This document shows positions 5,988 to 37,791 of a DNA stretch of 63,752 nt, in pieces. A program made the translations under genes and the position numbers. A model generated the notes under the pieces. The model ran no database searches. It had not been told where the DNA came from and worked only from the letters and a program-made list of their open reading frames with translations. Source of the stretch: Phoronis australis (Eukaryota > Animalia > Phoronida); NCBI GenBank assembly GCA_002633005.1, contig NMRA01000969.1, positions 14,310 to 78,061 of the forward strand, written 5' to 3'. How positions within the stretch are numbered: position 1 is the stretch's first letter; the number at the start of each line of letters is the position of its first letter.

Positions 5988-6237
5988 CTCAAGCCTTCGA
6001 AACGTCACTTGAGTAACGCTAATGTAAACAAAGCAATAGGCTAGCCTGTCCGAGACCAAACTTTTAAGAATATTGTAATAGACAAGGCAATTGACTAGTA
6101 CATTGCTGGACAACACGAAGCCACATAGAAGTAGTACACCAACAGATGGAAGTAGTAGTAGATGGCGAGTCAGCCACAGTAGAAGCAATACTATAGCACT
6201 GTACCAGCAACTTCCACGCAAATAAAGCAGCTCTGCC
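5988..6237 (-). CDS. ABCC4: ABCC4-like alternative exon 8g
   Basis: ttgtttgttctag|G...GAG|gttag, exactly 250 bp, open; AELLYLRGSCWYSAIVLLLLWLTRHLLLLPSVGVLLLCGFVLSSNVLVNCLVYYNILKSLVSDRLAYCFVYISVTQVTFRRLE. Confidence 0.82.
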
Positions 6238-9200
6238 CTAGAACAAACAAGAAATAGCTTAGTCCCAAAAAAAGAGAACACGGAAACCAACAGCACGAGG
6301 AGAGACACTGGTGGCCATGAGCGGTCTCGGAGCTTTGATATGTATCCACACTAGCACATCGCAAACTGCAAAGCATCATGGTTAATTGGTAATTTGAAGT
6401 GAATACAACCTGAACATCGATTGATAATATTCTGCAGGGAAAACCTTCATTGTCAATAACAAAAATGGATAGAATCAGGAAGCTCAATCAAGCCCGTTAA
6501 GGCAGTAGAAGACCAGTGTTTTCCCTGGGTTTAGAAAGGAGCGTAGTTGTGAATGGTCAAAACGCAAGGCAAAGCCAATTGCCGCATGTGAGTGTGGAAG
6601 TGAGATCCCTGTATTGCCTAGGTTTCTAAAGGAGCATGGTCTTGAATGGTTGCAGCGGATGCAATACTCAGCGCCTTACGTGAGAACTGGAAGTGAGATA
6701 CTCCTATGGGGGTTTGGTAGGAAGCCTTCCAAGGCAAAATTTGAAAAACTAGAGGTAATTTGGTGCATTCTAGTGCATTCTACAAGTGAACTCATAGACA
6801 GGACCTTAACTCGAGCATCATCCACAACGTGCTATACATAGAATGAAAAAATTAAACTTTTAAGGCATAATAAACTAATTTGTATTATGAAACTTCAGAT
6901 GATATCGTCTGGCATAGCAGACGATGCATAATCCAGTCTTTGCAGAAGAATCCATTCAATATTATTTTAGCACTGGGCTATGGTTCATTAAACTGTAGCC
7001 GTGTGACTTGGGCGTATTCATTATTCCTAGCCATTATTTTTACAAGCGAATTTTGCGTGGCGGTGAAGTTTCCTCCATCACGATTAGGGGAATGATGAGC
7101 ATGATTTACGAGTGGCGGGGCTTTTCATGCAGGGGAAGCAGTGTAACACAAGGTGTTTGTACTTATACATAAATATTTTGTCAAAATCAAAAAAATCCGT
7201 CAAAAAAACTTTATGACAGAGGGTGCCGCGGCATGGCCTCGCTCGCTCGATGTGGAATTTTTTTTGAACGAGTCAAGCCAAACGTTTCCACCACACGTCA
7301 TATTTCTTCAGGAACCCTCAACTACTTTGACAAATAATCGGAAGACAAAAAACAATGAATAGACGGACGGGATGCCTACTAAATCCATCCACATGAATGT
7401 GTGGATGGATAACAAAGATATAGCCATGGCTCTACCAAAGAGCCACTGAAGCAGGGGTAACCTCCATTACCTGCACATTTATGGATGGGGGAATTGTCAA
7501 GATCAGGACACTACAGAGCATGGAGAAGCGCAGGTTTTGCAGTGCAATGTAGGGTTCTCCATGGGATGAGTTCTGTTTACTCTTCAAAATTCAGCGGTTG
7601 ACTTTGTACCCTCACTGAATTTTCCAGATTACCAGATTGATATTAGACTGATGCTCATTTACATACATTAATTCATATCAACCAATTCTATGAATTCATA
7701 TCGATGGTATAATATGATATTATATATGGCTGATGAGAACTCACAAGGCCCTTTCACACTAATGTTGATGCGCTGATGTTTTGGGGAGTTGCGGTCGATA
7801 TGAATGGTTAAATTTGGACCTGGATCGTCAGCTAAATTTGCAAGAAACAGGTGGATTTAGAAGGGGAGCGTCCATGCTACCATGCGGTCAACTTTGGTCC
7901 CATCGACAGGGGCCACTGTTTTTGCCAACTAGAGGCTAGTGTCGACGCTAATAGTTACTTACATTTCACTTGAATAATCACCAATCGAATTAGAAATAAG
8001 TATGACAATTAGCAAAACAATGTAAACGTCCTCCAATTATTATATTACAAAAAATCTTAGCACACACGCAATGCATTAGCGCTACCTTGTGATCACTTTG
8101 ATGACGACAGTATCACTTAAACCATTTATTTCGATGTCCATTAACTACCAAAGCCGGTATGAACGGTTCAGTTAACTTCGTAGTTTACATCGATGCTCCA
8201 CTCAGACCGGGGTTAAGTCAGTATGAAAGGGTCTACAATAACAGCTGGTGCAATGTTTCAGGCAATGGGGCTATTCGGAAAATCTACAATAACTAGAGGG
8301 CGTGCGTGTACTAGTGGTGATAGATTAACAGCCTCGATTTCGCGAGCCCTTTAAATACATGGTGAAATGCCTTGCAGGCGTGCCAACTGAATCTGAGATT
8401 GCGTAAAAAGGGTGTTTCTATGAGAGGAAGTAAGCACGACCTCATACAAAGGTAAGGTTTGTGATCATTTTAACGATTATTCCATGATTATTCTACCGAT
8501 GCCTGTTAACTGAGGCACTCACCGATGTAGACTTCGCGGCAGTCAGTCGCCAGCCAGAGTCTGGTTAATCTTTGTATGTTGTGATATCTGATACGATACT
8601 TGACGTAGTAATCGGGATCTTTTCGTACATCATAACATTATTATTGTTTGGAATGATTTCTAAAAGTTTATCAGTGACAGTTACATCAATCAATGCTGAA
8701 TATTTATGCTGTCAACTCGATACAGGTTAACTTTGAGTTAAGATTAGAATCCAATCCCAATGGCAAAGGGTACGTGAGTGATAAATATCCATTGCATTAG
8801 ACTATTTGTTTACTACCTAGTATCATATGTCTTCTGGAAATCCATTACACGTTGAAATGGAAATCTATCATGTCAGTTTTCATGTAACCTTTGGTTTTTA
8901 GGTTTGAAGGCTTGTACCGTGCAGAGGAGATATGCATCGCTTCTGCACCGTCCCTGAATGGACAAAAATTGGTTTTTAGCATTTGACTGCAGCTAACCAA
9001 CAAGATCTTCCCATCCAGTGCAGATCTATTGTCAAAGCCTACTTTCAATATTGGAGACAACGAACAAAGCCTTTGAAAAGGAACAGCTATTTTTAAAGTC
9101 ATTTTGTTAAATTACTTATTCAGGTCCCGAGGGGGGATTGGCATGGGGGGTTGTAATATTTGGTACAACTGAATGTGTGGAAATAACAGGTAATACATGT

Positions 9201-12200
9201 TTGGGGAAAAGAGCATGGTGAGGTAATTCTTAACCTTCACGAAGTCCCTTCAAGTTGATTTCATGAAACTGTTTTGCTACTTGTATCAATTGTAAAACCA
9301 CGAAAATATATTACATTTTCCGAATTCACAGTGACTGAATAGTCTTAACTCATGCCTTGAAATGTTGCAAGTCGTTATAAATTCAAATGACTGCCATTTT
9401 TGTGAAAATTGCATTTTTGATGGTGCCTTACGATTTGTAATTACTCTTAAACAACAGAAAGATTATCCATCATTTTTAAATGACCCAAGTCTTCATATCT
9501 TCTATTAGAAGAAAAACGGTTCCCTCAACCTTAGGCTAGAAGTATGCTTGACAGACCCATGAACCTGTAATCTGAGTTTAAAATTGCTGAAAGTATCAAA
9601 ATTAAAAAGGCTTGAAAATGGGTAACAAAGGTTTGAAGTTGTCTCAAAAAACTTGTATATTTTACAGACAAGTGATGCGTTTAAAGAATTGTTATGGCTA
9701 GGGATAAAAAATAAAGACACAGTTTTATGCAATACTCATTATATACACCCTTGGTTTCTGAAAATAGTAATTATTTACTTTTATGTGAAACTGTAGACCA
9801 ATCACCATATATTTTTGAAAAACAGGGATAACATTTTTGATCCAATCTGGAGTACTTAATTATTCATATTTCAATATTTGTTCCAGGTTCAGTGACATTT
9901 TAAGGCCACTTCAAGCTGTATCATAGACAAGCTTTGTTACTCCGTTCTCTTCCCACAGCACTTCCACACACCAGCAGTGCTGCATGGCACAATGTGCAAG
10001 TCAGTGGCCCTGGAGAAATGTGAATCGCAGTACTAAGTTACCATAAGACAATGTGCCAGTGGAGTGTCTGTGTATCCAGACGAACTATATCTGACTGCTA
10101 CACAAATAAGCCTTGTTGGTGAGGATGCCCTTTCATAGGCAATGAGTCATGTGTGGACAATAGCTTATTTCCTTTCCTGGAAGAAACATGAGGGACTGAA
10201 GCTAAAGAAGACCTAGTCACACTCTGGTCTAGTTCAGAGTCTGATTTTGGGCTCAAAACGATTCAAGTGATATGCTGCTGTGTTTACCTTCAAGGGTCTA
10301 ATTGTGGATGTTATTGAGGCTGAATGAGGTTACATGAAAGAAAGCCACGTGTTGAAACTGGACCTTTTTTACAAGCGCTTCTATAGGCCATTGAAACTAG
10401 AACCCAGTGAAATGAAAGCCAAAAGCTGAGTGACATTAAATTTTCCTTTCAGAAGAAAGGCTTTATACTATTGGTAAAAACTTTTCAATTTGGTACAGAT
10501 TATGGGGAAATGACATTCAGTGACTGCATCGATTGTCTTATTGTATGTTTTCAATTGTAGCTAGCTGGATAAGAATCTGCTATGCACAAGATTCGAGAAT
10601 AAACAATTATCAGTGTATTTAAAAACAAATGGCAAACTGAAAAAGCACAGAAAGAAACAACATTGCGAGGGAGTCCATAATCAGGCATATCAGGTGCTGA
10701 ATTTCTGAATTACGTTCAATTCTCTCAGGTTATTGCTGAAGGATTGCTTTTCACTTTGTCCAACGGTGAAATAGATGGTCAGGCGGTTGGTTTCAGTTGT
10801 TTTTTCTTGCCTGTAACAGAATAGAAATATTAGCAAATTGTAAAAGAAAAGACAAGACAAAACTACTTTTGTAAGGCAGAACATACTTGACATTTCATCT
10901 TCATGTTTATGTGTAGAAACTAATAACCTTTGTACCCAAGTCTTATTTAATATCTGAATTAAAATATGTGAAACAGGCTAAAAGTGATTTAACAATGTGT
11001 ATTTTTCATGACACTTAAAATGTGCTTCTGATCTCAACAAGTAAAATTCATTCTAGGAGTCAATTTTTTTCCAATGCAATGTTACGACATTTACTGAATT
11101 AAGGCTTATTCATGTTAATTTGAAACTGAGCTGGTGGTCCTGGGGGTGGGGTCCACGATAAAATAATGAAACTCAATCATCTCGAGAATTTTATTGGAAA
11201 CAGCGTAATTTTGAAGAGAAACTGCTGTGAAAAGTCACTCTTGACTTCTGTGCATCACGTACCATACACCTCTTATTTTGGGAGCACTCCCACCCAGGAC
11301 AATATGAATATGTGCTGCTAGCCTACCCGGCATCGGGTGAGTTTCCAAAAAGAAACACTTAGTTCCACTCAATAAAACTGTTATTCAGTGGGGTAACTGG
11401 TGGGGATAACATCACCAAATGATGTTGATAGAAACTGGTTGCTAAAAACTTACCAAGTAATGTTGTGTAGTCTCTGAATGGAACTGCATAGTCATAGAGC
11501 ACACACGGGGCTTCAGCATCCACACACTTTTTGTCAGTTAGTTGACCCTGTCGACCGCACTTGTCCACGAATATAGTAAACTTAGGTCTTTTGGGAATTT
11601 GTCGCCACCTGTCGAAGACTTGCACCAGGGAAATTAGCAGTAATAGGGTTTACTGCGACGACGTATTTTGATAAAAATTCCATCTTTTACCAGTTGTTTA
11701 CATGCAGACAGCCACGCATGCGCAATTCAATCACCACTAGTACAGCAGCGACACCGCGAGGAGAATTCTCCGAATAGCCCCATTGTCATTAATTGTCATA
11801 ATCAAGTTAAAAGTGAGGATGTTTGTATCAGAGAGTGGCCCTTGGTGGTTGTCCAACACCACCTGGTGGCTGTTACATGGGAGGAGGCACTGGTGAATGG
11901 CTGCTAATTCAGCGGTTCTCTACACATCATCTGAAAGTGCTCTCACACAAAATGGACGTTAGGTGGCACTGCAGTAGTCAGATCCAGCCAAAAAGCAAAT
12001 GGTGCCATGGCAATTTCATCATAAACCAATAGATCAAGTTTTAATGAAATCCACCAATCACAATGCTAGATATCATCCAGAAACGTTTTCCCCAAAATAT
12101 CACTTGAAAAAACCTTCGTCGAGAATAAAATGGCCACGAGGATGTGCCGCAGTAGCCACATCTGGCTGAAACACTCTTCCCACAGAAATAAAGAGAAAGG

Positions 12201-14150
12201 TGATGTCTCCCTGACCCCAAGACCAGGCAGATTGAAAAAAAAAACATGAACCGCTCTAGTGATGCCCGTCACGCTTATGCCAAATTTCATCAAAATCCAA
12301 CTAGGAGTTTTTGAGATATCAAGTGAACATACAGACGCCTGGACAAAGTGATGACAATACACGACTACACATACATATACGTGTGAGTGTGTTTGTGTGT
12401 GTGTGTGTGAAATTACCATTTTTAATATTTATTGCTTGTCATGAATTCTCATGATGATCAAGTGAAAGTGAGTCATATCCTGTTTTTTCATTGAACTCTG
12501 GCAAAAGGAAGAGTTGTTACATAATAGTTCCTATAAGTAGTGACCTCAGCATATCAATGTTATTGTTTTAGTGCATCTGGTTGTCTGGTAAACAAGTCAT
12601 TTTCCATATATGGCATGCCAGGACAAGATTGTGGAATTCCATTCATAAAAGTTTACTATTTGTGTTGACATCACAGGAACTGACTCAAATACACCCAAAA
12701 CCCACACATATATAGTTGCTATATATACTGTAGTTAGGGCCAATAAACTTTGTGTGTTCTTATAGCCTTCAATCGATGTAGTCAGTTTTTATCTCCATCT
12801 AACAAGCAACGAACCGGTTAGACTCCACAGCAGTCTACAACCTCATCAAATACCCCACATTGCTATCTCAACTTGAAGTACTGATGGAAACAAACTGTAG
12901 CAGACGAATAAACACAAATATACGGTACAATGAAAGCGCTCCGAGGAGCGAAACTTGGCGAAATTAACAGAAACGACGACGACAGAGATGATGACGGAGA
13001 TGACGGATATGACCACGATGGTGGCGATGATGAACAATTCAAGTAATGATAACATTCCTATGACGAATGTAGAGGTCAGAAATCAGTAAGAAATGGGATA
13101 CAGTCTTGAGCGACACTTGGCGAAATTACCTGAAAAGACGACGGAGATGCTGAAAAAGATGACGAATATGATGTTGATGGTGGCGATGATAAACAACATC
13201 ATAACATTCATGACGAACTTAGATGTCATAAATCAGTAAGAAATAGGCTACAGTCTTGTTCAATAAAAGCTAAACCAACATCAATGCAGCAAGAGCACTC
13301 AACAAAGGAGCAGCGCTATCAGAAAATCTCGAATAACTCAAAAAGTAGACGTCCTAGCAAAAAATGGAAAATAACTTCTGAAAGCCCATTCAAAACTTTA
13401 CCTAAAAGGTTAGTTGTGCAAAATTCTGTAATTTTTTTTTGAAAAAAAATGAAATTTTGCAGGTTTTTTAAATTAAGTCAAATAACTCGAAAACACTAAG
13501 TCTGAGAAAAAATTGTTACAGTTCATTTGAAAGATTATACCTCAAAGAATCTAAATGCAAAAATTCACGTCATTTTCTCTTGCCGTTTAAAAATGGCATC
13601 CCAGCACGACTGAAAATGGGTCAACATGCGCCAGATCCGCATTAGCTCGGAATGATAGCATGTCATAAGAAACTAGTACTTGAAAAAAATCGACGGAATT
13701 GGTCCTATATTGCGCCCTCTACCGGAGAAAACGTTTTTACCCTGGAATCGAAGTGCGCATGCGCCATGGCCAATAATTCCGCCATCTTTGACCGGAAGTT
13801 CGCGATTTTTTACATATGGATAGCACTTGCCTAGTTCTGTGTATTTACCGATTTTGTGTTGTGTACTTAAATAATTGCTGCTTCTTTGGGCATTTGAATC
13901 TTAAATTGTAAACAAAGTGACCGCCATGTCCGCCATTTTGAAACCAGTCATTACCGAAAACAATAGGCTTCCAGCACTTCCGGAGATACAAGACATGTGC
14001 AAACTTCGTGGGAATCGGTCAAAAATGCAACCTGTAGAGTGCGAACAAACAAAAAAAGGAAAAAACTTGACGTCAGAGCAAAATACTTGGCCAAGTAATA
14101 AGCGATGCTACACCCACAATATAAAATTGATGTATATCTTTGCAACAAAC

Positions 14151-14254
14151 CTTCAGTCGTTCAAAGGTTACACTAGTCGCACTGATGTGTATCAAGCAAT
14201 ACGCAATCCTGTCCGAGATCAAGCCTTTGAAAACAATGTAAAAGTTGAGACAAG
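14151..14254 (-). CDS. ABCC4: ABCC4-like alternative exon 8f, 3' part only (5' part hidden in the N gap; acceptor expected near 14400)
   Basis: ...CLNFYIVFKGLISDRIAYCLIHISATSVTFERLK|gtttg; clearly homologous in DNA and protein to the 3' half of exon 8g. Confidence 0.72.
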
Positions 14255-14722
14255 NNNNNNNNNNNNNNNNNNNNNNNNNNNNNNNNNNNNNNNNNNNNNN
14301 NNNNNNNNNNNNNNNNNNNNNNNNNNNNNNNNNNNNNNNNNNNNNNNNNNNNNNNNNNNNNNNNNNNNNNNNNNNNNNNNNNNNNNNNNNNNNNNNNNNN
14401 NNNNNNNNNNNNNNNNNNNNNNNNNNNNNNNNNNNNNNNNNNNNNNNNNNNNNNNNNNNNNNNNNNNNNNNNNNNNNNNNNNNNNNNNNNNNNNNNNNNN
14501 NNNNNNNNNNNNNNNNNNNNNNNNNNNNNNNNNNNNNNNNNNNNNNNNNNNNNNNNNNNNNNNNNNNNNNNNNNNNNNNNNNNNNNNNNNNNNNNNNNNN
14601 NNNNNNNNNNNNNNNNNNNNNNNNNNNNNNNNNNNNNNNNNNNNNNNNNNNNNNNNNNNNNNNNNNNNNNNNNNNNNNNNNNNNNNNNNNNNNNNNNNNN
14701 NNNNNNNNNNNNNNNNNNNNNN
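14255..14722. other. Assembly gap (468 N)
   Basis: Run of N. Confidence 1.
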
Positions 14723-14886
14723 TATTCACCTATTTCACGAAAGCGCCATCTTCCCGCGCCATCTTTAAATACTGATCGAAAACGAGGCACACTGATAAAA
14801 CCTCGTGAGTGATCATCAGCTGGCCATGGTGTACTGTGCAGTGCCTGAACGTACCAATTCCAGTAATATCTCGTCGGTATTCTTCC

Positions 14887-16669
14887 CAGGGATATACTTA
14901 GCCATTCGCCCAGTCGCCAATGCGAGTAAAAATGCTGCTGGGCGAGTAGAAGTTGACTTGCCGGTCGTCCGGTGGTGAGCGAATTTCAAAGCGCAAAAGC
15001 ACTGTATATCGTTTCCCAGATGAATATGAATGATTTTCCTCCTTCTTGTGCTTGTGCTGTTTTTATCATGAATTTAAGGTTCAGTTTGGTCGTCGTGTCG
15101 ATGCTCCGGCAGTAAAAACATCGGCGCAGTGCGACCCTACCGATTCAGTACATGTCACCCGTTACACGATTCGTCAAAAAAACACAGTGTGTGGTCGTGC
15201 ACAAAGAATTTGTGGACTAGTCCGAAACGAAGAAAAGGGGAGAAAGGTGGAAGACCGGTCCATGTGCTCATAGCAAATAAAATACCATATTTCTTGGAAC
15301 TGATTTCTTATTGAAATGTACAATGTCATTTTAGCCAGAATTATTTTTATAACATTCGTCCTGATAAGCGCCCATGCCCCTATAAGCGTCCCCACTCGTT
15401 TTCAGACTTCGCTAAAATAAGCGCCCAGTCCATGAATGTGTATATATCAGTGCGAAAAATGTCTTACCTCACAGTTCTAAAATTCTACAGTAAAAATGTA
15501 TTCAATTTATCAATGAATATCCGACAGTTCTGAAAAATCATTGTGCGCGTAATTCAAGTTCTAGTAGACCACGAACCTCGCCGCTATGTCAGTATTTAGC
15601 CGTGGCTGTACACTTCAAACCATTCCGCAGTGCTTCAAAAAGAACGCAAAAGATTTGCTGATCTTGCGCGGAGGAAAGTGTCACTCTACATGGTCTGGCC
15701 CTGATCAGAACAGACGTAGCGTACTCAGGTCAACGGGATTGGTCACGATTGTATCTTTCCAGTACAGATCTTCTCCCACAACAGGAATCCAGATTGTTTT
15801 GTACACGAAAAATTGTAACTTAAACCGCGAATCGAAACTTGGCCAAGAAGCGCGCGCTAGGGCCCACATATAACATGTGGGCCTGCTCAATGAGATAAAT
15901 ATACTACATTATACAGCTCATTGGGCCTGCTACTCTGGTAAATGAACACTGCTGACACGCACGCGCTCGCTCACTCGGTGCACACCAGCTGATTCACTTC
16001 AATACAAACGTCACGTGACAACAACATATGTGTTCGGCGTCCAAATTTTTCTCGTTGCGGGGTGCGATCTAGCGCAGATTTTGACTTAATCTGCGGTTAA
16101 TCCCGACTCCGAGTCCACAGGAACTTAAGAATCTTAGGAAAGGCTATTTGGGAGGATTTCGGGTAATTTGAGTCGAAACTATTTTTACTCAAAAATTCAA
16201 GTTGTCCTATAGACGATCGCGAAGCAGCGACGCATCAGTCGGCAAGTTTTCGCCCTGGGACTTTTCAGCACATTTTTTTAAAAAGATCGTAAGTTAACAA
16301 CAGAGTTTGATAGCAATGCACCACAGTTTTGTAGCTAGTCTGTCATAGGTTACACATACGTCACAGCGCGTAAATTTGAATGCTAGCTTCCGATTTCACC
16401 CGTTTCGGAGACCAGGTTTTAACTGCCGTAGGCTACAAAAAGAGTCCCCCTGGGCGCTTATCAAGAGCGAATACGGTAGCCCTAATAGATGGTGACATCA
16501 GTGCACAAAACGATGATTTTTATTTAAATTAGCAGCAAGTTTATGGTGACTGGCGCCAACGGCCGGGTGACCGAACTTCGGGCTTGGTCAGTAGATTTTC
16601 TGACTCCGGCACTCGCCCAGCTGGCGAGCAGGGTTTTTCAAGACTCATAAAACCCTGGGTATATCCCTG
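14887..16669. mobile_element. hAT-like non-autonomous element
   Basis: TIR cagggatatac / gtatatccctg; imperfect target duplication attcttcc / acttcc. Confidence 0.65.
15350..16476 (-). mobile_element. pogo/Tc1-like non-autonomous element nested in the hAT-like element
   Basis: Right end gggcgcttatcaagagcgaatacgg|ta; inverted homologue of 39370-45100. Confidence 0.7.
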
Positions 16670-17805
16670 ACTTCCACACTTTTTCAAAAGAGGGAAAACT
16701 ACTAAGGAATGGCTGAGGAGGGTAAAAGTCTAGTTGCCGTAAGTATTGGTATGTTTTTTGGAGATCGATTCAACATCAGACAACTTGATTTTTGGTAACG
16801 TTGATAAGTCTTTTGACCACACCACCTTGCAGGACGATGCCATGTTTGTCAAGGCGCCTCGTTTTCGATCAACACGACAGCAGCGCCCCGCGTTCGTGAA
16901 AGAGGTGAATACGAATAAGAGTCTGTGAAATCAAATAAACAATAAACAGCAATCCGGTAAAATGGGGCAAATCTGAGCAATAATCAAAAAATGTACAAGG
17001 TCGGGGTCAAGAGTCAGCAACACCTACATTTTGATTTCCAGGTCCAACTCAGGTGTGCTGATTAAAGCCATGTTGGATTCCAAATAGAACAGAAAAAGGT
17101 AGTCCAAAGAGAGCCACTAAAATTCATCACTGGACTTTTTCAAACACGAACCAACCAACCAATTTTTAAACAGGTGACAAAGATTTTATAATAGCCAGAT
17201 ACAGTGAAGACGAGCAATAAGATGTCAGCTTCTGGTATCAGAAATCCACGGATTTTAACTGTTTAATTATTCCACAAAATGGTATCCAGTTATCTAACAT
17301 TCCAACACCTCTTATTAGGATCTAAAAGCATGACTTCGTTAGTGAAATACGCAACAAACCTAGAAGCATGACCTGGTTAGAGAAGACAAAGCCTGATTAT
17401 TATAGTAAAATAAGGAACACCACCTGCCGTGGTTAACGAAACACGAAACCATAGTGAAATCAGAAATATGATCTCAGTACAAAAATATGGAGCCTGACCA
17501 TTATAGTGAAGCATGAAGCTTGAATATGAAGCCTGACCATGATAATGAAATAAGACATATGGCCTTGGTAGTGAAATATGGAACTTGACTATTATAGTGA
17601 AACATAATTAGCCTGAATATGAAGGCTGACTATGATAATGAAATAAGAAATATGACACCACCCCCAATGAACTATGAACCATATTTACTGAAATATGAAG
17701 CCTGTCTACACTTGACAAAAAGATGTGTGGCCTTCAAGGGTGCATTTTATATTGTCTCTACATTTACTTTAAAATCAATTGCTCTACCTAACTCCATGGC
17801 AGAGA

Positions 17806-17930
17806 AGGCAGTGTGGCCTACTGTGATAGGTACCCGCCTTCGTTACTTGAGGTCATGGGTTCGAGTCCCACTGGGCCACACTGCTACATCCTTGAGTCCC
17901 ACTGGGCCACACTGCTAGACCCTTGAGTCA
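17806..17930 (+). mobile_element. tRNA-derived SINE head (degenerate)
   Basis: A-box-like tggcctactgtg and B-box ggttcgagtcc; no cloverleaf. Confidence 0.45.
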
Positions 17931-20378: not shown

Positions 20379-20628
20379 CTGAAGACGATCAATGGACACA
20401 CGGCCAGCAGAGGTCACCTCCACAATCTGCGCCATACGCGTCCCCAATGTGCCTCGCACCATTATAAAGTACAAAATGGTTGGGAAGACACGCGTACTGG
20501 ACAGCCAATAACCGCAGGCAACCATGCTAATAATAGCTCCGTAAACAGTAAACATGGACGCCGTTAGAAAGAGATGGCGGTTGATGCCACAAAACAGAGA
20601 GTTTACACGGATGATCTGCGCTTCCAGG
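20379..20628 (-). CDS. ABCC4: ABCC4-like alternative exon 8e
   Basis: ttgtag|C...CAG|gtttg, 250 bp, open; LEAQIIRVNSLFCGINRHLFLTASMFTVYGAIISMVACGYWLSSTRVFPTILYFIMVRGTLGTRMAQIVEVTSAGRVSIDRLQ. Confidence 0.85.
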
Positions 20629-20989: not shown

Positions 20990-22390
20990 GACAGCAGTGA
21001 TAACAACGTAAAGACAATATGCGGGATGAAGACTATGAATATAGCGATGATAACAATTTAAAGACAATACGATTGATGAAGACTATGAATATAGCGATGA
21101 TAACAACGTAAAGACAATATGTGGGATGAAGACTGTGAATATGGCAGTGAGAACAACGTAAAGACAATACGTGGGATGAAGACTATGACAAGAGCAACGC
21201 GGAGCGTTGAAATGCGCCCACAATTGCACCGCATACGGTATCCTTCTAGGGTTGTTTATTGGTACCATCAAGTGGCCAGTAGAGGGCATACTTTGCAAAA
21301 TGGGCTAGGGGCAAAATGTGAGTAATCTTCATAATACAAGCACATCCTATACACCAGTTGCTTAAAGCACCACAGAAACATAGAATTAAAAACAAATTTA
21401 CCAACATACGAGATTAGCACAGCATTAGAATGCCAGAAACAAATTTCTACTTGGAACTTCTCCTTCACAGTCACGAAGTAACACAAAGTATACACCTGAA
21501 GACCTATGAAAATACAGAGGTCAATGTAAAATACTAAAATTGCCACTAGAGGCAAATACTAAAATTGCCACTAGAGGCAAATACTAAAATTGCCACTAGA
21601 GGCATACCGGTAGTCAGAATCATCCTAAAGTCGTCATCGTCCGTTGTCAACATCACATAAATACACTTCCTAAATTTAGTAAAGATCCTTTCAAACGGTT
21701 TGGGAGATACAGCCATGGGCGCAAAAAAACAAAACTGCCACTAGGAGGCGCCACAGTAGTCCAAATCGTCTGAAAATCATTGTCAGCTGTCTTCCTTATA
21801 GTAAGCACATACACGCCAATTTTCACAATCATCCTTTGAGCGGTTTGGTTGATAGAGGGGTGGACGCAAAAATACAGACTCGAAAACAGTAAAAATGGCC
21901 ACTAGGTGGCGCAAACTACGTCGAATCCATCTGAAAACAGTAGGATAGCGTCATCTCACTAATAGGTGCCTACATACCAAATTTCATGAAAATCCGTTCA
22001 ATACTTTTGAAGATACAAAGGTAAGCGTAAAAAACTAAAATTGCCACTAGGGGGCACACCGGTAGTCGGATCCGTCCGAAAGTTCGCACATGCCGTCCCA
22101 TTCATGAATGGAACATATGTGCCAAATTTCATGAACGTATGTCAAAGGGTTTTGGAGATAGAGCAGCGGACGCCGGACGCCAGACCCCGGACGGACGCCG
22201 CCCGGACGGACAGACGGACGGACGGACAGAGATGACGGCATAATGCGTCCACATATAAATATGTGGGCGCATAAATATAGCGATAACAACGTAAAGACAA
22301 TATGAGGGATGAAGACTATGAATATAGCGATGATAACAACGTAAAGACAATATGTGGGATGAAGACTGTGAATATGGCAGTGAGAACAAC
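20990..22390. repeat. About 50 bp minisatellite (gaagactatgaatatagcgatgataacaacgtaaagacaatatgtgggat) interrupted by a transposon
   Basis: Units at 20990-21187 resume in register at 22275-22390. Confidence 0.85.
21188..22274 (+). mobile_element. HINE/DINE-1-like non-autonomous Helentron
   Basis: 5' subterminal atgcgcccaca (21212) is inverted at the 3' end (tgtgggcgcat, 22262); 3' hairpin partner at 22243; (gacg/gaca)n tract at about 22165-22235; no TSD. Confidence 0.65.
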
Positions 22391-24363: not shown

Positions 24364-24613
24364 CTGAAGGCGATCAAGTGAAATGTTGGCTTCCTCACTT
24401 AACTGTATGGCGAATGTAATGTACACAGACAAGCTCAACTCCAACACTCTAAACATTGGCAATGTCAGAAAAGTGACTTTTGATGTCAGTAAACCGGACA
24501 TGGAGATGTATGTCACGGCTACCCCAACTATGGCCAGCTTAGCGTGTGCCATGGCAATGCCCCAGTTACCAGCCCGGGTACTAAAGGTTAACTGGATAAA
24601 AACCACTTCAGAC
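24364..24613 (-). CDS. ABCC4: ABCC4-like alternative exon 8d
   Basis: tttcag|G...CAG|gtttg, 250 bp, open; SEVVFIQLTFSTRAGNWGIAMAHAKLAIVGVAVTYISMSGLLTSKVTFLTLPMFRVLELSLSVYITFAIQLSEEANISLDRLQ. Confidence 0.88.
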
Positions 24614-26459: not shown

Positions 26460-26683
26460 CATTACTGGTGGGAAATTTGCATTGGTATTACTGGTGTGAA
26501 AGTTATCTTGGTATTACTGGTGTGAAAGTTACCTTGGTATTACTGGTGTGAAAGTTGCCTAGGTATTACTGGTGTGAAAGTTGCCTTGGTATTACTGGTG
26601 TGAAATTTGCCTTGGTATCACTGGTGTGAAAGCTGCCTTGGTATTAGTGAAGAGAAAGCGACCTTGGTATCACTGGTGTGAAA
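26460..26683. repeat. Minisatellite, 26 bp unit
   Basis: ttggtattactggtgtgaaagttacc variants. Confidence 0.9.
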
Positions 26684-26739
26684 TCAAGATGAAGAAAAGC
26701 TGCACCGCATCTTCAAGAGCAATATCAAACATCTTCAAG

Positions 26740-27700
26740 AACAATACCAAACATTGCACACCGCTTTACACCAACCTGACATCGTCTATTGGCTACACTT
26801 TGTTCCTGCAGGAATCGGATAGCATCAGGAAAATGCATGGACACAGTCACCTCAAGAGCCAATAGTAGTGAGTAGAGAACGTAGACCATGTGTGCAACAA
26901 GCCTGTTGACACCACCAATGGTGACCACAACAAACACTGTAAGGGCTACCAGCTTTGTGAAGGTGAAATAAAAGGCAAAATTGATCGAATCGATGGCAAG
27001 CGACGTCCGGATGAAACAAACTTCCAATCTGCAACGACAAATGAAGACATGAACATGATGCCATTCATTTTCGTTTTCACTTGGAGTTGAATTTTGGCTG
27101 ACAACATTGCGCACCTATGGTCCGCCTCAACCTGGAAAAGTAGCCAAGTTTAAGTAAAATGTGGGGACCCGAATTAGTAAAAGACAAGAACATGCAGTCA
27201 AGAATAAGTGAGTGACATCACATGGTTCACTTGGGGAATAGAAGCTAACCACTTCAGAAGGCAAGCTATTGAGATCACATGGTCAACTTGAAATGTATGG
27301 CAACAGGTTGAAGAGACTTGCATCAATTCACAAGGCACTTTATTGAACACACTGCAGGTCATGTGACAGATTTTGTACCAATTACGTCACATGACAGTGA
27401 TAATACCATCTACTCACTCAACCAGATGTGAACTTGTAATAAAGCCACCTTGTAACAAAAGCGTAGTAATTATCAACTAATTAAGCACTGGGCAGAGTTC
27501 AATATGAAAAGAAGCTACACAATTAGTGCACCAGAAAAAAAAAATCAATTTGGAAATGAACCTTGTTGGGCAGAAATCTGTGACTGGAGAACACGGAGTT
27601 TGATGAAGAAATGGCAAGAATGGAAGCCTGTACCGAGTCTGAATTGTGCCGAGACTAGAACTAGTGCGAGCAGCAGCAGCAGCAGCAGCAACTGCAGCGC
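26740..27700. repeat. Segmental duplication carrying exon 8c; partner is about 35325-35900 plus 36530-36880 (exon 8b)
   Basis: Colinear intron homology, e.g. 27400-27670 versus 36580-36870; both copies end in a CAG-rich tract. Confidence 0.9.
26776..27028 (-). CDS. ABCC4: ABCC4-like alternative exon 8c (recent paralogue of 8b)
   Basis: ttgcag|A...CAG|gttgg, 253 bp, open; LEVCFIRTSLAIDSINFAFYFTFTKLVALTVFVVVTIGGVNRLVAHMVYVLYSLLLALEVTVSMHFPDAIRFLQEQSVANRRCQ. Confidence 0.84.
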
Positions 27701-27706
27701 AGCGCA

Positions 27707-29790: not shown

Positions 29791-32700
29791 AAGAGTTCAT
29801 GTTACTTAAACATGTATTTGAACTCTCCAAACTATACTAATGTATAATAGGAACTAAGCGACAATGTTTTAAAGATGTATTTGCATGCTCCTAACTATGC
29901 TAATATATGGCAGGAATTAAACGACAATGCTATTTGAACATCATCTATGCTAAACAAAGTGCAGTTGTATTCATTGACAACTTGTAAATGTCAAAACAAA
30001 AAAAATACACAAATAGGTGACCTTTGCACTATTGATGTACCATGGGGCTCATATAATCTGCATCATGCAGTGTTATTCGCCAACATCACGTCACGATACT
30101 TATTGGACACAAAACTCCTTCTTAAAAACATTTAGCACTTTTCAAGCTATTTCATCACATTGTCGCTATATGTTGCGTTTCCAACTAATTTGACCAAGCA
30201 ATCAAAGAGTTGTGGAAATAGCTTTTGAGTTCTACTTTAAAAGCGTGTACACCACTCCAAAGCCACACAGTCGAAAGAGACCAGTGCCAGTACTACAATA
30301 TAGCGGCCCGCCTCTGGTAAGCAAGGTGTTTATTTGATGATGAATTCCTCCCCCAATGGTTATAAAACAGATTTTGTTAAACGTCAGCCATCGGGCTGAA
30401 TACGATTTATTTTCAGAATCTCCGATTCATATTACTTTAGTCCAGACATTTGCTCGATTCATTCCTAGGAATTCGCTGTTGTTATCCCTCAATTTACCAT
30501 GAACTTGACGACTCAAGGCAAAGAACCAAATCACTCTGTCTGGAGGTTGTTTGCTTTCTCTTACACTGAATAATGTGTACTAAAGTTTGAATGCCATAAC
30601 AATAATGAACGATGTAGAGTGAAAATCAGCAAATACTGTAGCAACAAATAAGTACGGTGTTTTCTCTATCAATTCGTACACTCCATTAGTTCATACAGGA
30701 CCCTTGAAACATGCCGTTTGTCTCCAATAATTCGTACAATAGGCTTCCGAGGGAAAAATAGTTCGTACACACATTTGCGTCAGAAAAAATAATTCGTAGC
30801 TTTTTGGATCGGTAAAATGGAAATTTTCATTCTTATATCAGAACACAAATCAATAAGCGCCAATTCTATTCAGGTGATCGGAATCCGTTATTTGCTTTAC
30901 TATGCTAGCATAGAGCTTGAAAAGTCGTTTTTCAGATCGCCATTTTTGGCAGCAGAAAATGTGTAAATAGCGATAAGATTTACCAGTGTGTCGCCAAATG
31001 GTGGTAAAATTGTCATAACAGCGGATTTTCCCAACAAGGTTCTGTTACCTTCATATTAGCACTACACGAATAAATTTACAAAAGTGCGGAGTAACAGTAC
31101 CATGCCGTCCCGTAGTCTTGTTAGAGCTGATTCCGGTGACTGTAGTGCGCAGACGTCAAATGACTATACAGTGCTCTACTTTGATTGCAACTATTCTCAC
31201 GTGGCGAAGTGCGCGCATGCAATCTTCACGTGTTGTAGAGGTTACATCATATGGATTAAATTTATGGCCACAATGGTCTCGTGACATGAGTAGAACTATG
31301 TGTGTATTAGGTGTAATGTTCTGAAATCAGAGAGCAAATAATGAGTTGTTGGACGAAATTAATGTTTGAAAAACTAATTCAGGTTTTTTTATGGTTGGGA
31401 ATGTTTATGTTCTAGACTCCGCACACCAATGAATTGTCAACGTAAGGTTTATTTCGGCTGTCTTATCTCGAACGCTCGGCACGGTTAACTTCACTTGCCA
31501 TTGCGTAAAACACACTACGTAATGAAGACGAAAATTGTATTTAAGCGGACATAAGCTAGTCGCCAATCAAAAGGTACTGCAAGGGTATTACTCAACAGCA
31601 AGTATTTGCTTGATATTTTATGACTTTGACTCGGGATGAGTCTAAAGAACCCGTACAGTGAGGGTCCTAGGGAAAAATACTTCGTACAGTAGGGGGGTCG
31701 AGCGAAAAATAGTTCGTATACGTATCTTTGTCGGTAAAAATAACTTATAAACAAATTGCCAATTATTCAGGTAATAGGTAGCCATGGTAAGTTAGTGACT
31801 AGCTCTAACCAGCAATGCCTACTCAGTGAGTACGCGCTAGTTCGGTGTCGGTTGTAATGAACTCGGCGACCTGAAATTTTGAAATGCGAGCCGAGACAGG
31901 TCATTTCATATCAAGTTGCAACCTGGAAATTCCCAAGAACGCGAGCTTAGGCTAGATTTTGGCGGCAAGTAGTTACCTAACACTTGAGCAAATCTGGTCG
32001 TTATTTGGTTGTTTCCAAATCAAGTTGAACACTCGGCCCTCTTCATTGAGTTGAAAACATGCTGCATGAACATGGGATAACGTCTTTGGGTAATTCAGAA
32101 CTGATCTTTGACGCGCTTCATTGGCTGCTGTTTTTGGCTACTTTTGCAAATTTTTGGATGAGCCGACAAAAAATTCGGACCACGGCATAAATACGTGATC
32201 AATTAAAAACGTCACAGCGATGTTTAATTCACTAGAGACCACCTTACTGAATTTGTGATGAAAAAAACATTTATTTTTCATGCAAGCTGTCCTGATCAGC
32301 CAATTACAATATCCCCAACAATATCATCACACTGCGGCACTGCATGGTCGATCCGCTGTTTGCGCGCAATGTCCCGACAGACCGTGACTTGGAAATGCGC
32401 CTCTTTTTTATGGCAAGACAGCAAACAGATTCTCCAGCCCTACTATACTTTCTGGGGCTGAGCATGACGCGCGTATGTATGAGTCACCTGTCACTCACAT
32501 GTGTTGTTGTCAATGTAACATGCACTCCAATGATTCAAGTGTGGGAACATACACGTGCGCTACTTCAAAGTCACACATCAAACGAGAGTAGCGACAGTGC
32601 TAACTGAGAGAGTACACCTGTTTCGCATTCAGTAATGGTAGGACCTTGCTAAAAAGCAAGACTTCGTGAGATTCTTGATGCGAGATATTGTCATGTATTT

Positions 32701-34460
32701 TGAGTGAGAACATGTGACTTTTGCTAGATTTTAGCTTGGTCCTAGCGTAGGTCCTAGCATAACAGAACGCACGCCTGCTCGTCTCTGTACCAGATAAGTT
32801 TCAGCGATCCAGGTGTTAATTTACTTGACAATGAACTTAGACCTCTTGGGGTTATAAAAGACCCGTTGCTGCGCAATATTCCTTGGGCCTAATGTTCCGC
32901 AGAACCGCGTGTCTCTGGGCTCGATATTCCAGGCCCTGTAGCCACCTTCTAGAGATCTTTTTTATTCTTCTCTCTGTACAACCCCCTCACATTAGCGCCA
33001 ATTTTCATTCCCCGGGTCACCGGTCGACCACGTAAATTTTTCAGGCTCGATTCTATGGGAAGAATTTTATTCCGGCTGAAGCTGGCCAGTGTAAAAACAA
33101 AATTATTCCGGGTGGCTATACATGTAGGTGGAAACTGTATCTACACAGACAGGCCTAGGCGGAGCAGTTTGCCCCAAGAAATTGTATCGTAATAGCATTT
33201 CTTACTGTTGCACTCATTTAGTTTCTTATTACCGCAAACATTCACGTATAGTATTCGTCTATAACACTTTTGATTTTTTAGGAAATACGGTAAGCGACTA
33301 CTGCTCTTCTAAGCTAAGTCTCGAGAAATTTCAATTAAGCTCCAGGGCACACAACAAGAACTGCCAGCGACATTGGTAAAATCTGCTAACATAAAAACTG
33401 GCTTGCATTTTTTAGTATTTCAAGACCACACACAAATACCCGGCAGCAAATTAACCTTGTGAGGCACACTGTCCTTCTCTTCGCCACGGCATCCTCAGTA
33501 ACCCGGCAAAATACATTTCCAGAAAGCCAAGTCCGGGGAATTTTATCAAAATAGGGAGAATTTGACCTTTCCGTGAGGTATCACCCGGCAAAAATAATTT
33601 ACTTGTTGTTATAATTCACATTGCCAAACTACCGTCTCGGAGGCCATCGTTACACTTGTTATCGTCTATTTTTATCTCTAATAATTTGAACACTCGACTT
33701 TCTTCTCTAATAGTTCTTATGGCCAATTTTGTCTCTAATAATTCATACACGAAGCTCTAATAGTTCATACACTAGTGAACGAAGTAATAGAGAAAACATC
33801 GTTAGCATGTGCGTTTGGACGTCCTACTTCATAATACAGCATAAATTATGTGAGGTGACCAGCTGGAAACGGCAAACAACGCATCGTCCAAAGCAAATGC
33901 AGATGGAATGAAAGCACCACACTGTTAAGCTAAACAACTTACATGGTTTATACAGACTATTTGATGAAGACCAGTGGCCATAAGGCAGCTGTTTTGACCC
34001 AAGCAAGAAATCAAAGTGTCAGACCGTCATCAAAAAAAAAGCTGAAAACCAAGAAGACAAAGCAATGCTCGTTGTTTTGCAGACAACTTTTTGGGTGGCA
34101 AATGATTCCTTGCTACTGATTACAATTTCAGTCAACATTAGAATTGTTGTCTGATTTGGAGGTCTCAAACTTGTCATAATTCTGCCATTAAATACTCTGA
34201 TGAGTGGGTTTCTAGAGGCCATCAGTAAAACACTAGAAGACCAAATGAAACAGCTGATCAGTCTCCAGTGGTATATATATATTGGCTGACCAAAGTAGTG
34301 ATCTTGCTGTCAAAGGTAAAGATGGAGCGAGTGTTATGACGGACACAGGTAAAAAGTGTCAATGGCTTCCTAATGCAGTTAATTCCACAACCATTGCAGT
34401 GCACATTATCTAGCACTTTGTACCGGCTAGTCTACTTTAGAGGTTCCTACTATGAAGGAC

Positions 34461-34590
34461 CATCAAGAGACCTTGACCTCCCTGTGTTGCAACATCAAGA
34501 GACCTTGACCTCCCTGTGTTACAACATCAAGAGACCTTGATCTCCCTGTGTTACAACATCAAGAGACCTTGACCTCCCTGTGTTACAACT
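34461..34590. repeat. 32 bp tandem repeat, 4 copies
   Basis: catcaagagaccttgacctccctgtgttacaa. Confidence 0.9.
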
Positions 34591-35359
34591 TCCAACAGGC
34601 ATAATAAGCGTCATCAATTCCACCATGTCCTGGAATCACTAAGCATCAAATAAAAAAACAACTTCACTCCGTAATTTTTAACACCTCAGAAAAGAGCGTA
34701 ATCTTAAAATTTTGTCAGTGACCACAGTCATTTGACCAATCATGAATGGAGAAGCCTGACATGCAGATTACTTGTACATACAACAAGCCTTATTGGTAGA
34801 ACCATGCGCTGTACACTAAGTCTGTCATTTAATGGATTTTTGGTCCTGTACATGTGGATCGCCCTTCAAACGAAGTTGATTATTTTCAACTTCAATTGAA
34901 TTTTTAAAGAGAAACAAATGCTCAACATTGGCATCACTTTAAACCCTGTGTACAACAATTTTATGTCCTATAGTACATAGAATACAGGTGAATCCGCAAC
35001 AAAACAGCCTATTCATTTTCAATGGATATAACAACTCGCCCATGCATTCTCATTGCTTGAATTTAACCTTCAGCAACACAAATATGTACTGAAGCACTTT
35101 GTAGTCTCACTAAGATGTACTATGAGTTCATCTTTACCAACTAAGGTAAACGGGCGAATTCAAAAGTCAGTGATTTGACATCGAAACACAGATGAATTGG
35201 GGCCATACCTTGCAGCACCATCAGTTTCAAGTGTCTCAGTGACATGAAAAAAACCCAAAAAGTCCCATGGGACTAGCCTTGTTACCAAGACAACAAAGAT
35301 GAAAACGCCTCTACCAAACAGAAACAATTGTAAGACATCACACACCACTTTGCACCAAC

Positions 35360-35612
35360 CTGACATCGTGCGATGGATACATTTTGTTCCAGCAAGAAAC
35401 GGAGAGCGACATGAAACTGAATGGACACAGTCACCTCAAGAATCATTACTAGTGGGTAGAGAATGAAAACCATGCGTGCAATAAGTCTGTTAACACCACC
35501 CACGGTGACCATAGCAAACACTGTAAGGGCTACCAGCTTTGTAAAGGTGAAAGTAAAGGTAAAATTGATCGAATCGATGGCAAGCGACGTCCCCATGAAA
35601 CAAATCTCGAAT
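35360..35612 (-). CDS. ABCC4: ABCC4-like alternative exon 8b
   Basis: tttcag|A...CAG|gttgg, 253 bp, open; FEICFMGTSLAIDSINFTFTFTFTKLVALTVFAMVTVGGVNRLIARMVFILYPLVMILEVTVSIQFHVALRFLLEQNVSIARCQ. Confidence 0.82.
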
Positions 35613-36863
35613 CTGAAATGACAAATGAAGACATTAACGTGACGTCATTCGTTTGGATGGCTTTCACCTGATATTCAATTTTGAGCGAGAACATTGAGCA
35701 CCTATGGTCCACCTGGGCCTAGAAACGGAGCGAAGTTTAAGTGAAATGTGGGGACCAGAATTAGTTGAAGACGAGAACATGGAGTCAAGAATTAGTGAGT
35801 GACATCACATGGCTCACTTGGGGGATTATAGAAGCTAGACACTTCAGAGAGTATGCTACTGAGATCACACGGATCACTTGAAATGCATGGTAACAACTCA
35901 TAGAGACTTAAAGTGCATAAAATCATCATTTACCTTGACCATTTACAAGTGACTACATTGTCAGCCTCATTGCATCTTTCGTTACAACACTTCACAACAC
36001 AATCGTGAATTCAATATCCAAAAAAACGAGAAAATAGAAGACAAGCGACTTCAATTGAAAGTTTCCCAGCTCCACCATAGATTATAGACAACTATAGTCT
36101 ATGGCTCCACACACTTGTTCACCCAACAGGCAAGTTTCTTGACTTACCTTGTTCAATATCCGTGCTACACTGATGCCTTACTAAAAAGTGAGCAAAGTCA
36201 CAGTGTGGTCAAATACATAGTTGTCACAACCACAACAAACACATCGCCTCACTATTCCTTACTATACTGTAAACCACAAAATACCAAGCAGCAATATCTG
36301 ACGATTTTTCACACTAAGCATAATGGAGGATGACTAGGCCTGTGATAATGTAGTATGTATCAACCAATAAAAGCTCGTAGCTCAATATCAGCTAATTAAC
36401 ATACAGTCAGATAGTGTTTTGGTGGTGTTCTCAGTTGACAGCTGGGATAGACTGGTGAAGTTGTTTTATGGTTTTTAGTTTTGAAATTGGTGGTTTTAAG
36501 CACTTCAAGTGAACTCGGACACTAACTTTATTATGCGCACTACGGGTCACGTGACAGATTTTGTAGCAGTCATATCACATGACAGTGATAGTACCACGTA
36601 CTCACTCAACCAGATGTGAAGTTGATGGTAACTTGTAACAAAGCCACCTTGTAACAACAGCATAACAATTATCAACTAATTAAGCACTGGACAGAGTTCA
36701 ATATGAAAAGAAGCTACACAATTAGTGCACCAGAAAAAATCAGTTAGGAAATGAACCTTGTTGGGCAAAAATCTATGACTGGTGAACATAGAGTTTGATG
36801 AAGCAATGCCAAGAATGGAAACCTGTATCAAGGCTGAATTATGCTGACACTAAAACTAGTGTG

Positions 36864-36970
36864 AGCAGCGGCAGCAGCAACGACAGCAGCAATGACAGCA
36901 GCAACGACAGCAGCAACGACAACAGCAACGACAGCAGCAACGACAGCAGCAACGACAGCAGCAGCAGCAC
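36864..36970. repeat. (agcagcaacgac)n 12 bp repeat
   Basis: Seen directly; produces the spurious SSND / LLSL ORFs. Confidence 0.9.
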
Positions 36971-37541
36971 AACAGAAACAAGAGTAATATCAGCAGTATT
37001 TCGCAGAACACCTGCTGACAATAATGAGCACCACTTCACGTGTCTGCTGACAATAATGAGCACCACTTCACATTCACGTGAATGGTGAATGGGTCGAGTA
37101 ATATTGCACAACAGCATTACATAAACATGGTGCTCCCAACCTAATATCTCCGTCACACCAACTTAGTTCACACTACAAACTCAAGGATGTGACAAAGACC
37201 GAGAAGGTACTAACTGAGGATTTCTTGAACGGTGTCGCATCCAAAGTACAGTTTTAGTCATAGTTGACCCTTTCCACTTGGGCATTAAGGGAAATGGAAA
37301 GGAAAATCAGTACTTGCACTAAACAGGATTTTGTGTCCCAAACTTTAACTATAATTATTATAATTGGATGCAGAAATAAAAATGTATTCAAGCTAAAGAT
37401 CCTGGTACGGCCGCAATTTGAAACAGACATGAATCCTATTGGCTATATTAATAACAAGTAACAAGAGTCTACTTTTTGTTACTGCTCCAAATCTTATAAT
37501 CTCACTTATACAGAAACCACGGAGACTCAAGTGCCACCAAC

Positions 37542-37791
37542 CTGTAACCTTCTTATAGTGACCAAAGCCTCCTCCATGAACTGAATGGCGAAGGGTATGA
37601 ATACAGACATAGACAACTCCAGAACGCGCACAATTGCGAGAATAGTGAAGACCACTGTTGTAGGTAGACCACTAGTTAAGAAGACGAACGTAACGAACAC
37701 AGCATAGGTGACCATTTTTGAGGAAGAGAAAGCAAACGCAAGGTTTACAGAGCGGGTAGAATGAGCAGACTGGATGTAGCTGACCTCTGAC
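37542..37791 (-). CDS. ABCC4: ABCC4-like alternative exon 8a (TM5-TM6)
   Basis: ttgcag|G...CAG|gttgg, 250 bp; SEVSYIQSAHSTRSVNLAFAFSSSKMVTYAVFVTFVFLTSGLPTTVVFTILAIVRVLELSMSVFIPFAIQFMEEALVTIRRLQ; colinear with human exon 8 (KEISKI...SEAIVSIRRIQ). Confidence 0.9.

What the first reader, a model, noticed from the sequence alone, without database searches (positions are those of the whole stretch)
5988..37791. Array of at least seven mutually exclusive exon-8 cassettes in an ABCC4/MRP4 gene
Seen: exons 2-7 are single copy. Seven paralogues of the next exon follow (8a 37542-37791, 8b 35360-35612, 8c 26776-27028, 8d 24364-24613, 8e 20379-20628, 8f 14151-gap, 8g 5988-6237). The six complete ones are 250 or 253 bp, AG/GT bounded, phase 2 to 0, stop-free, start xE and end Rx(Q/E) despite very divergent proteins. 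No exon 7 or exon 9 copy lies between them, so this is exon duplication rather than gene duplication. Joining two cassettes, or skipping all, shifts the frame. Established: human ABCC4 has one 250 bp exon 8 encoding TM5-TM6; Drosophila MRP (CG6214, ABCC1-like) has seven alternative exon-8 variants over the corresponding helices. Inference: an independent, convergent system in the ABCC4 lineage that makes a repertoire of exporters from one gene. I know of no description of this for ABCC4 but cannot search the literature.
Basis: partly seen in the sequence, partly recalled or inferred. Interest (0 to 1): 0.95.

Follow-up and report, generated by a model that had tools for sequence, protein, structure and literature searches.

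The report
Swappable cargo-pocket exons in ABCC4 pump
An invertebrate gene for the drug-export pump ABCC4 carries seven divergent copies of the one exon that builds part of its cargo pocket, likely used one at a time to make pumps with different cargo preferences; the same arrangement is already annotated in many molluscs and an acorn worm, and a parallel one is published for the sister pump MRP1.

Summary
Observation confirmed. On the minus strand, single-copy ABCC4 exons 2-7 are followed by six complete and one gap-truncated copy of exon 8 (human residues ~305-387, TM5-TM6), with no other ABCC4 exon between them. All complete copies are open, AG/GT-bounded and 3n+1 long; 15 of 15 double inclusions hit a stop. 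Sparse sense-strand RNA reads fall on bins of five cassettes, but no junction read was shown. It is not unique: database isoforms identical except for exon 8 occur in 15 of 18 invertebrates compared (14 molluscs, one hemichordate; 11 versions in Biomphalaria glabrata), not in amphioxus, Lineus or three fish clusters. MRP1/mrp arrays are published; ten searches found no paper on ABCC4 exon 8, but the key paper (Yue 2017) was not readable. Pocket residues differ in every cassette. No docking/selector pairing was found. The scan earlier noted duplicated ABCC4 exons in TMD2 of another genome. Verdict: real, new variant of a known kind, interest 0.5.

The parts
56220..56330 (-). ABCC4 exon 2 (111 nt), single copy
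54517..54634 (-). ABCC4 exon 3 (118 nt), single copy
53242..53457 (-). ABCC4 exon 4 (216 nt); best solved-structure hit ABCC4 103-177, E 4.5e-16, CFTR next at 3e-9
52031..52120 (-). ABCC4 exon 5 (90 nt), single copy
51033..51196 (-). ABCC4 exon 6 (164 nt), single copy here; best hit ABCC4 E 5e-15, MRP1 6e-8
49730..49855 (-). ABCC4 exon 7 (126 nt), the common upstream exon; its bin carries sense-strand RNA reads in 3 of 3 raw-read runs
37542..37791 (-). cassette 8a, 250 nt, closest to the single-copy exon 8 of other animals (59 bits)
35360..35612 (-). cassette 8b, 253 nt, recent duplicate of 8c (84% nt, 68% aa, dN/dS 1.1)
26776..27028 (-). cassette 8c, 253 nt
24364..24613 (-). cassette 8d, 250 nt, 45% aa to 8a, dN/dS about 0.2
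20379..20628 (-). cassette 8e, 250 nt
14151..14254 (-). cassette 8f, 3' part only; 5' part hidden by the N gap 14255-14722; 56% aa to 8g over 34 residues, dN/dS about 0.2
5988..6237 (-). cassette 8g, 250 nt, the most divergent

Best explanation
This is one ABCC4/MRP4 gene with seven tandem copies of exon 8 (TM5-TM6), which are likely spliced one at a time between the shared exons 7 and 9 and would give pumps that differ in part of the cargo pocket. Shown: gene identity, single-copy exons 2-7, seven copies, intact frames and splice sites, stops on double inclusion, and one-of-many use of exon 8 in database isoforms of 15 other species. Inferred: the spliceosome picks one cassette per transcript; skipped or doubled products are out of frame and would be removed by nonsense-mediated decay; how a cassette is chosen is not shown (all seven donors have T at +3, none of the six constitutive donors does, which may reflect competition among cassettes or simple shared descent). 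Inferred from human structures: the cassettes change the residues equivalent to F324, R362, L363, L367 and F368, so cargo preference would differ. The window's array is compatible with growth inside its own lineage.
For: Cassette profile matches human ABCC4 306-387 best of all solved structures, E 3e-11; exons 4 and 6 likewise. No exon 1-7 or 9+ copy among the cassettes. Six of six complete cassettes are open although only 13-68% identical; shuffles are open in 1-3%. Older pairs show purifying selection (8a/8d 0.22, 8f/8g 0.23, 8a/8c 0.38; synonymous sites near saturation). All lengths are 3n+1 and 15 of 15 ordered pairs give a stop in the second cassette. Two hydrophobic stretches are kept in all six. 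RNA: bins over 8c, 8d, 8e have reads in 9 of 18 bin-by-run cells against 4 of 51 non-repeat intron cells, all in the sense orientation (Fisher p 3e-4; seven repeat bins left out, cells not independent); the 8a bin has sense-only reads in 3 of 3 runs and the 8b bin in 2 of 3. Orthologues: in 15 of 18 invertebrate species compared, isoforms are residue-for-residue identical before and after a block that coincides with exon 8. Pocket residues F324 (TM5), L363, L367, F368 (TM6) contact cAMP, methotrexate and PGE2 in human ABCC4 (PMC11948813, passages); F324 pairs with R362 and F368 sits at the pocket centre (bioRxiv 10.1101/2022.12.12.520055, passages). At 324/362/363/367/368 the cassettes read A-E-L-V-F, T-E-V-I-Q, Y-E-V-M-H, A-E-L-V-Y, F-R-G-T-R, L-K-S-D-R, against F-R-L-L-F in fish and amphioxus.
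Against: No exon7-cassette or cassette-exon9 junction was displayed in either lay; the lists were cut and filled by repeats. Depth on each cassette is about one to two reads, far below exon 7 (roughly 9-15x if all reads of its bin lie on the exon), run X3 has none on 8c-8e, and the contig set X1 has depth on the exon-7 bin but on none of 8a-8e. Exon 9 is outside the window and no genome is held. 8b/8c show dN/dS 1.1, which neutral drift explains as well as mixed selection. No cassette is as close to the single-copy exon 8 as the conserved cassette of most molluscs (59 bits against 72-116), so the main cassette may lie beyond the window. No transport data exist here. The pocket mapping rests on an alignment at 13-45% identity.
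Confidence: 0.85

Rival explanations
1. One cassette (perhaps beyond the window) does the work and most of the seven are rarely used or decaying duplicates.
For: Very low read depth on 8a-8e against exon 7, none in contig set X1; 8b/8c dN/dS 1.1; extreme divergence of 8e and 8g.
Against: Six of six frames and all splice sites intact despite near-saturated synonymous sites; equally divergent cassettes are annotated in full-length isoforms of molluscs, and some classes are shared between bivalves and gastropods.
Confidence: 0.1
2. Same array, but exclusivity is set by competing RNA pairings (one docking site, one selector per cassette), as published for MRP1 and Dscam1, with decay only as a backup.
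For: Competing structures are reported for MRP1 and 'Branchiostoma MRP' clusters (PMC8791459 and PMC10790352, passages). Introns of 2-8 kb between cassettes rule out steric hindrance.
Against: No 14-mer (up to 3 mismatches) is shared by more cassette flanks than in 8 random controls; the best 25-nt tile in the first 1.5 kb of intron 7 pairs with the upstream flanks at -22.8 kcal/mol, inside the range of 12 controls, -21.2 to -23.5; the one candidate motif lies in a 50-nt tandem repeat and has no complementary site. These tests are weak without related genomes and cannot see a docking site near exon 9.
Confidence: 0.35
3. The copies are assembly or haplotype artefacts, or remnants of separate ABCC4 genes.
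For: 8b and 8c share about 930 nt including flanks at 82-85% identity; there is a gap at 8f; tandem ABCC4 loci exist in Mya and Dreissena.
Against: All other pairs are 13-56% identical; no flanking exon is duplicated; the 8b/8c similarity is local and interrupted, not a haplotype-length block.
Confidence: 0.04

Closest known systems
ABCC4 exon-8 isoform sets in public annotation: Biomphalaria glabrata XP_055867946-56, Physella acuta XP_059156855-63, Ptychodera flava XP_070538060-64, Mya arenaria XP_052782617/19/20 and others
   Same: Same gene family, same exon with the same boundaries, isoforms identical elsewhere, one conserved-type plus several very divergent cassettes.
   Different: The window's cassettes join no mollusc or Ptychodera cassette class with support; 8a-8d form their own group (SH-aLRT 92 and 84) and the six as one clade are not rejected (p-AU 0.70). 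These are annotation records, not a description in print.
Drosophila MRP (CG6214) exon-8 cluster and C. elegans mrp-1 duplicated exons
   Same: ABCC exporter with interchangeable homologous exons; the fly and worm events coincide in one region of the structure and the fly event has eight exons (PMC9741552, passages). That this region is the helix pair equivalent to TM5-TM6 is recalled, not checked.
   Different: ABCC1-type rather than ABCC4-type gene (searches put the window gene with ABCC4); competing RNA pairings are reported there and were not found here.
MRP1/MRP tandem exon duplications across bilaterian phyla (Yue et al. 2017, RNA Biol 14:1399, PMC5711460)
   Same: Independent exon arrays in helminths, annelids and molluscs (PMC7434440, passage) and in Branchiostoma MRP (PMC8791459, passage).
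   Different: Citing passages speak of mrp-1/MRP1 or plain 'MRP'. The paper itself was not held, so whether it covers ABCC4 exon 8 is unknown.
Human ABCC4/MRP4
   Same: Best match for exons 4, 6 and the cassettes; exon lengths 111/118/216/90/164/126/250 against human 111/121/225/90/164/126/250 (human lengths recalled).
   Different: One exon 8 in the three fish clusters and the amphioxus isoforms examined; single copy in human is recalled.

Membership tests
ABCC4/MRP4 subfamily | Best similarity to ABCC4 over ABCC1, CFTR and SUR in TMD1 | tested here: met
   Exon 4: 62 bits ABCC4, 40 CFTR; exon 6: 58 ABCC4, 36 MRP1; cassette profile: 46 ABCC4, 27 plant ABCC
ABCC4/MRP4 subfamily | Grouping with ABCC4 orthologues in a tree with ABCC1 outgroups | tested here: inconclusive
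   Exons 2-7 are 52-71% identical to annotated ABCC4 of molluscs, annelid, hemichordate and chordates, but the tree of 40 rows held no ABCC1 and placed the window in no starred clade
ABCC4/MRP4 subfamily | Short ABCC architecture (no TMD0; two TMDs and two NBDs) | not testable with these tools
   Exon 1 and exons 9 onward are not in the window; no genome held
Mutually exclusive tandem exon cluster | Homologous exons in tandem with the same phases, between single-copy flanking exons | tested here: met
   Upstream side and the interval between cassettes tested; the downstream flank is outside the window
Mutually exclusive tandem exon cluster | Transcripts carry exactly one cassette, and more than one cassette is used | tested here: inconclusive
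   Sparse sense reads on bins of five cassettes, no junction displayed; met in annotated isoforms of 15 other species
Mutually exclusive tandem exon cluster | Double inclusion is incompatible with the reading frame | tested here: met
   All lengths 3n+1; 15 of 15 pairs of complete cassettes meet a stop in the second cassette
Docking-site/selector clusters (Dscam1, MRP1 type) | Conserved intronic docking site complementary to a selector beside each cassette | tested here: inconclusive
   Nothing above random controls; no related genomes, and a downstream docking site would be outside the window

The most novel reading that the evidence does not exclude
ABCC4 exon 8 is an undescribed, phylum-wide cargo-pocket repertoire: arrays arose separately in molluscs (before bivalves and gastropods split), in hemichordates and in this lineage, always on the helix pair that insects and nematodes diversified in MRP1, and cassette choice by tissue or chemical exposure switches what the pump exports.
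Probability: 0.35. Interest if true: 0.75.

Novelty: new variant of a known kind. Interest (0 to 1): 0.5.

Why it matters
ABCC4 is a main exporter of signalling molecules and foreign chemicals, and gene counts are used to gauge chemical defence in aquatic invertebrates. If one gene makes 3-11 pumps with different pockets, such counts and most expression assays miss the real repertoire, including in farmed bivalves and in Biomphalaria. The isoforms are natural pocket variants on an identical scaffold, which makes the question of how MRP pumps set their cargo range directly testable. Repeated duplication of the same helix pair in two ABCC subfamilies is a clear case of convergence. The surprise is limited because the kind is published for MRP1 and the ABCC4 isoforms are already in RefSeq.

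Tried and rejected
No genome is held, so exon 9 and further cassettes could not be sought. The run search listed no RNA holder of the stretch; raw RNA runs came by species label. Pfam found no family in any of the 7 cassettes. A search with the cassette profile among longer proteins returned only a fungal and a plant ABCC and was uninformative. A search of protein representatives with 8g was still queued and was not collected. Shared-motif and docking-site searches gave nothing above controls. The idea that cassette donors are weaker by U1 match count was rejected: 6-7 of 9 matches against 6-8 for constitutive exons. The organism could not be placed: 71% to Solemya, 62-64% to Ptychodera, Owenia and Lineus, in no supported clade; a lophotrochozoan outside the sampled bivalve and gastropod clades is a guess. 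Ten literature searches found no description of ABCC4 exon-8 arrays; Yue 2017 and its supplements were not readable and may bear on novelty.

Full report
Observation. The six complete cassettes lie at the stated coordinates on the minus strand, are 250 or 253 nt, AG/GT-bounded and open from their second base. 8f shows its last 104 nt and donor next to a 468-N gap. Exons 2-7 were located and join into an open 274-residue frame. A profile of 24 full-length homologues finds each of exons 2-7 once and no part of exon 9 or later anywhere in the window; tblastn with exon-6 variants finds one exon 6. A profile made only of 85 exon-8 segments from other species recovers 6 of 6 complete cassettes and no further copy, and an enumeration of 25 splice-bounded open segments adds none. 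Shuffled cassettes are open in 1.1-2.6% of trials. The array is therefore real and arose by exon duplication.

Identity. Exon 4, exon 6 and the cassette profile each match ABCC4 best among solved structures, ahead of CFTR and MRP1; the cassettes cover human residues 306-387. Exons 2-7 are 71% identical to Solemya ABCC4, 62-64% to Ptychodera, Owenia and Lineus and 50-59% to chordates; a 40-row tree, which held no ABCC1, placed the gene in no supported clade. The organism is an invertebrate; its phylum is not settled.

Selection. Cassettes are 13-68% identical as protein. dN/dS is 0.22 for 8a/8d, 0.23 for 8f/8g (34 codons) and about 0.4 for 8a against 8b or 8c, with synonymous sites near saturation, so these are rough. 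8b and 8c are a recent duplication with flanks (82-85% identity) and have dN/dS 1.1, which does not separate drift from mixed selection.

Expression. No RNA run was listed as a holder; three raw RNA runs with the same species label and one contig set were laid, about a fifth of each raw run being read. The exon-7 bin has sense-only depth 1.7-2.9 over 645 nt. The 8a bin has 0.14-0.82 in 3 of 3 runs, the 8b bin 0.32-0.36 in 2 of 3 (88% likeness, repeat-rich background). At 95% likeness, bins over 8c, 8d and 8e have reads in 9 of 18 cells against 4 of 51 non-repeat intron cells; seven repeat bins were left out (Fisher p 3e-4, cells not independent). This is one or two reads per cassette. Run X3 has none on 8c-8e and contig set X1 none on 8a-8e. 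Several cassettes appear to be transcribed at low level; the dominant one is probably 8f, 8g or outside the window (inference).

Relatives. A search with Mya arenaria ABCC4 gave 1315 proteins, 120 listed. I chose clusters with several members and listed 23 of them (at most 15 members each, so counts are minima and the sample is not random). In 15 of 18 invertebrate species compared, isoforms are identical before and after a block that matches exon 8: Biomphalaria glabrata 11 versions, Physella acuta 8, Dreissena polymorpha 3 and 5 at two loci, Ptychodera flava 5, Pomacea, Mytilus edulis, Argopecten, Mizuhopecten and Ruditapes 4, Haliotis asinina and Mya 3, Magallana, Crassostrea virginica, Babylonia and Pecten 2. 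Fragments, models without the anchor and models with a shortened exon 8 (Mya X4 and X5, one Dreissena model) were left out. Lineus and two Branchiostoma species vary elsewhere, and three fish clusters have one exon 8. That such models rest on aligned RNA reads is recalled, not checked.

Origin. In a 91-row tree of 83 columns, 8a-8d group together (SH-aLRT 92), four of five Ptychodera cassettes group together (92), and 8e and 8g are long unplaced branches. On 45 of these rows the six window cassettes as one clade are not rejected (p-AU 0.70), whereas gastropod cassettes as one clade are (p-AU 0.005), so some mollusc classes likely predate the bivalve-gastropod split. This fits separate expansions, but 83 columns cannot exclude one older origin.

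Mechanism. All cassettes are 3n+1 long, so skipping or doubling shifts the frame; 15 of 15 pairs meet a stop in the second cassette. Decay of such products is inferred. Introns between cassettes are kilobases long, so steric hindrance is out. All seven cassette donors have T at +3 and none of six constitutive donors does, though U1 match counts are alike. Searches for shared selectors or a docking site near exon 7 gave nothing above controls; they cannot see a site near exon 9. In human ABCC4, F324 (TM5) and L363, L367, F368 (TM6) line the pocket and contact cAMP, methotrexate and PGE2 (PMC11948813, passages), and F324 pairs with R362 (bioRxiv 10.1101/2022.12.12.520055, passages). Each cassette has a different set at these five positions, including R-to-E charge reversal at 362 in 8a-8d and R at 368 in 8e and 8g, while two hydrophobic stretches are kept. 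Different cargo preference is predicted, not tested.

What is known. Interchangeable homologous exons are published for Drosophila mrp (eight exons) and C. elegans mrp-1 in one structural region (PMC9741552, passages), as independent events in helminths, annelids and molluscs (PMC7434440, passage), with competing RNA structures in MRP1 and Branchiostoma MRP (PMC8791459, PMC10790352, passages). The primary paper, Yue 2017, was not held. Ten searches found no description of an ABCC4 exon-8 array in the open library; subscription papers and that paper's supplements were not seen.

Verdict. Real array, correctly read, very likely mutually exclusive (0.85). It is a new variant of a known kind: the MRP1 strategy repeated in ABCC4, already present in annotation of many species and apparently not written up. 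Interest 0.5.

Noticed in passing
window 21188-22275: Repeat element with very high RNA depth (about 500-1260 in X2-X4, nearly all one orientation), flanked by copies of a 50-nt tandem unit at 20998-21188 and 22282-22390; related copies at 2100-3710. The reads probably come from many genomic copies.
   Followed up: partly
window 39573-43783: Probable DNA transposon in intron 7: 235-nt inverted repeats (77% complementary) around plus-strand ORFs of 167, 374, 223 and 112 aa; Pfam gives only DUF6589 at E 0.05. RNA reads cover it on both strands.
   Followed up: partly
window 59600-62000, minus strand: Broken ORFs that look by eye like a non-LTR retroelement endonuclease and reverse transcriptase; Pfam found nothing in two pieces.
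   Followed up: partly
P0066/P0142, P0116/P0056 (Branchiostoma), P0231/P0034 (Mizuhopecten): ABCC4 isoforms with two versions of exon 6 (residues about 204-258); the window has one exon 6.
   Followed up: partly
P0051/P0147 (Lineus longissimus): ABCC4 isoforms differ in a TMD2 block (residues 834-858) rather than in exon 8.
   Followed up: no
window 26751-27684 and 35335-36879: Local duplication unit carrying 8c and 8b with about 650 nt of upstream intron at 82-85% identity, interrupted in the 8b copy.
   Followed up: yes
window 15353-16442 and 43804-45097, 39429-39531: Inverted copies of a transcribed repeat on either side of 8a-8e (69-81% identity); could in principle pair in the pre-mRNA; not tested.
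   Followed up: no
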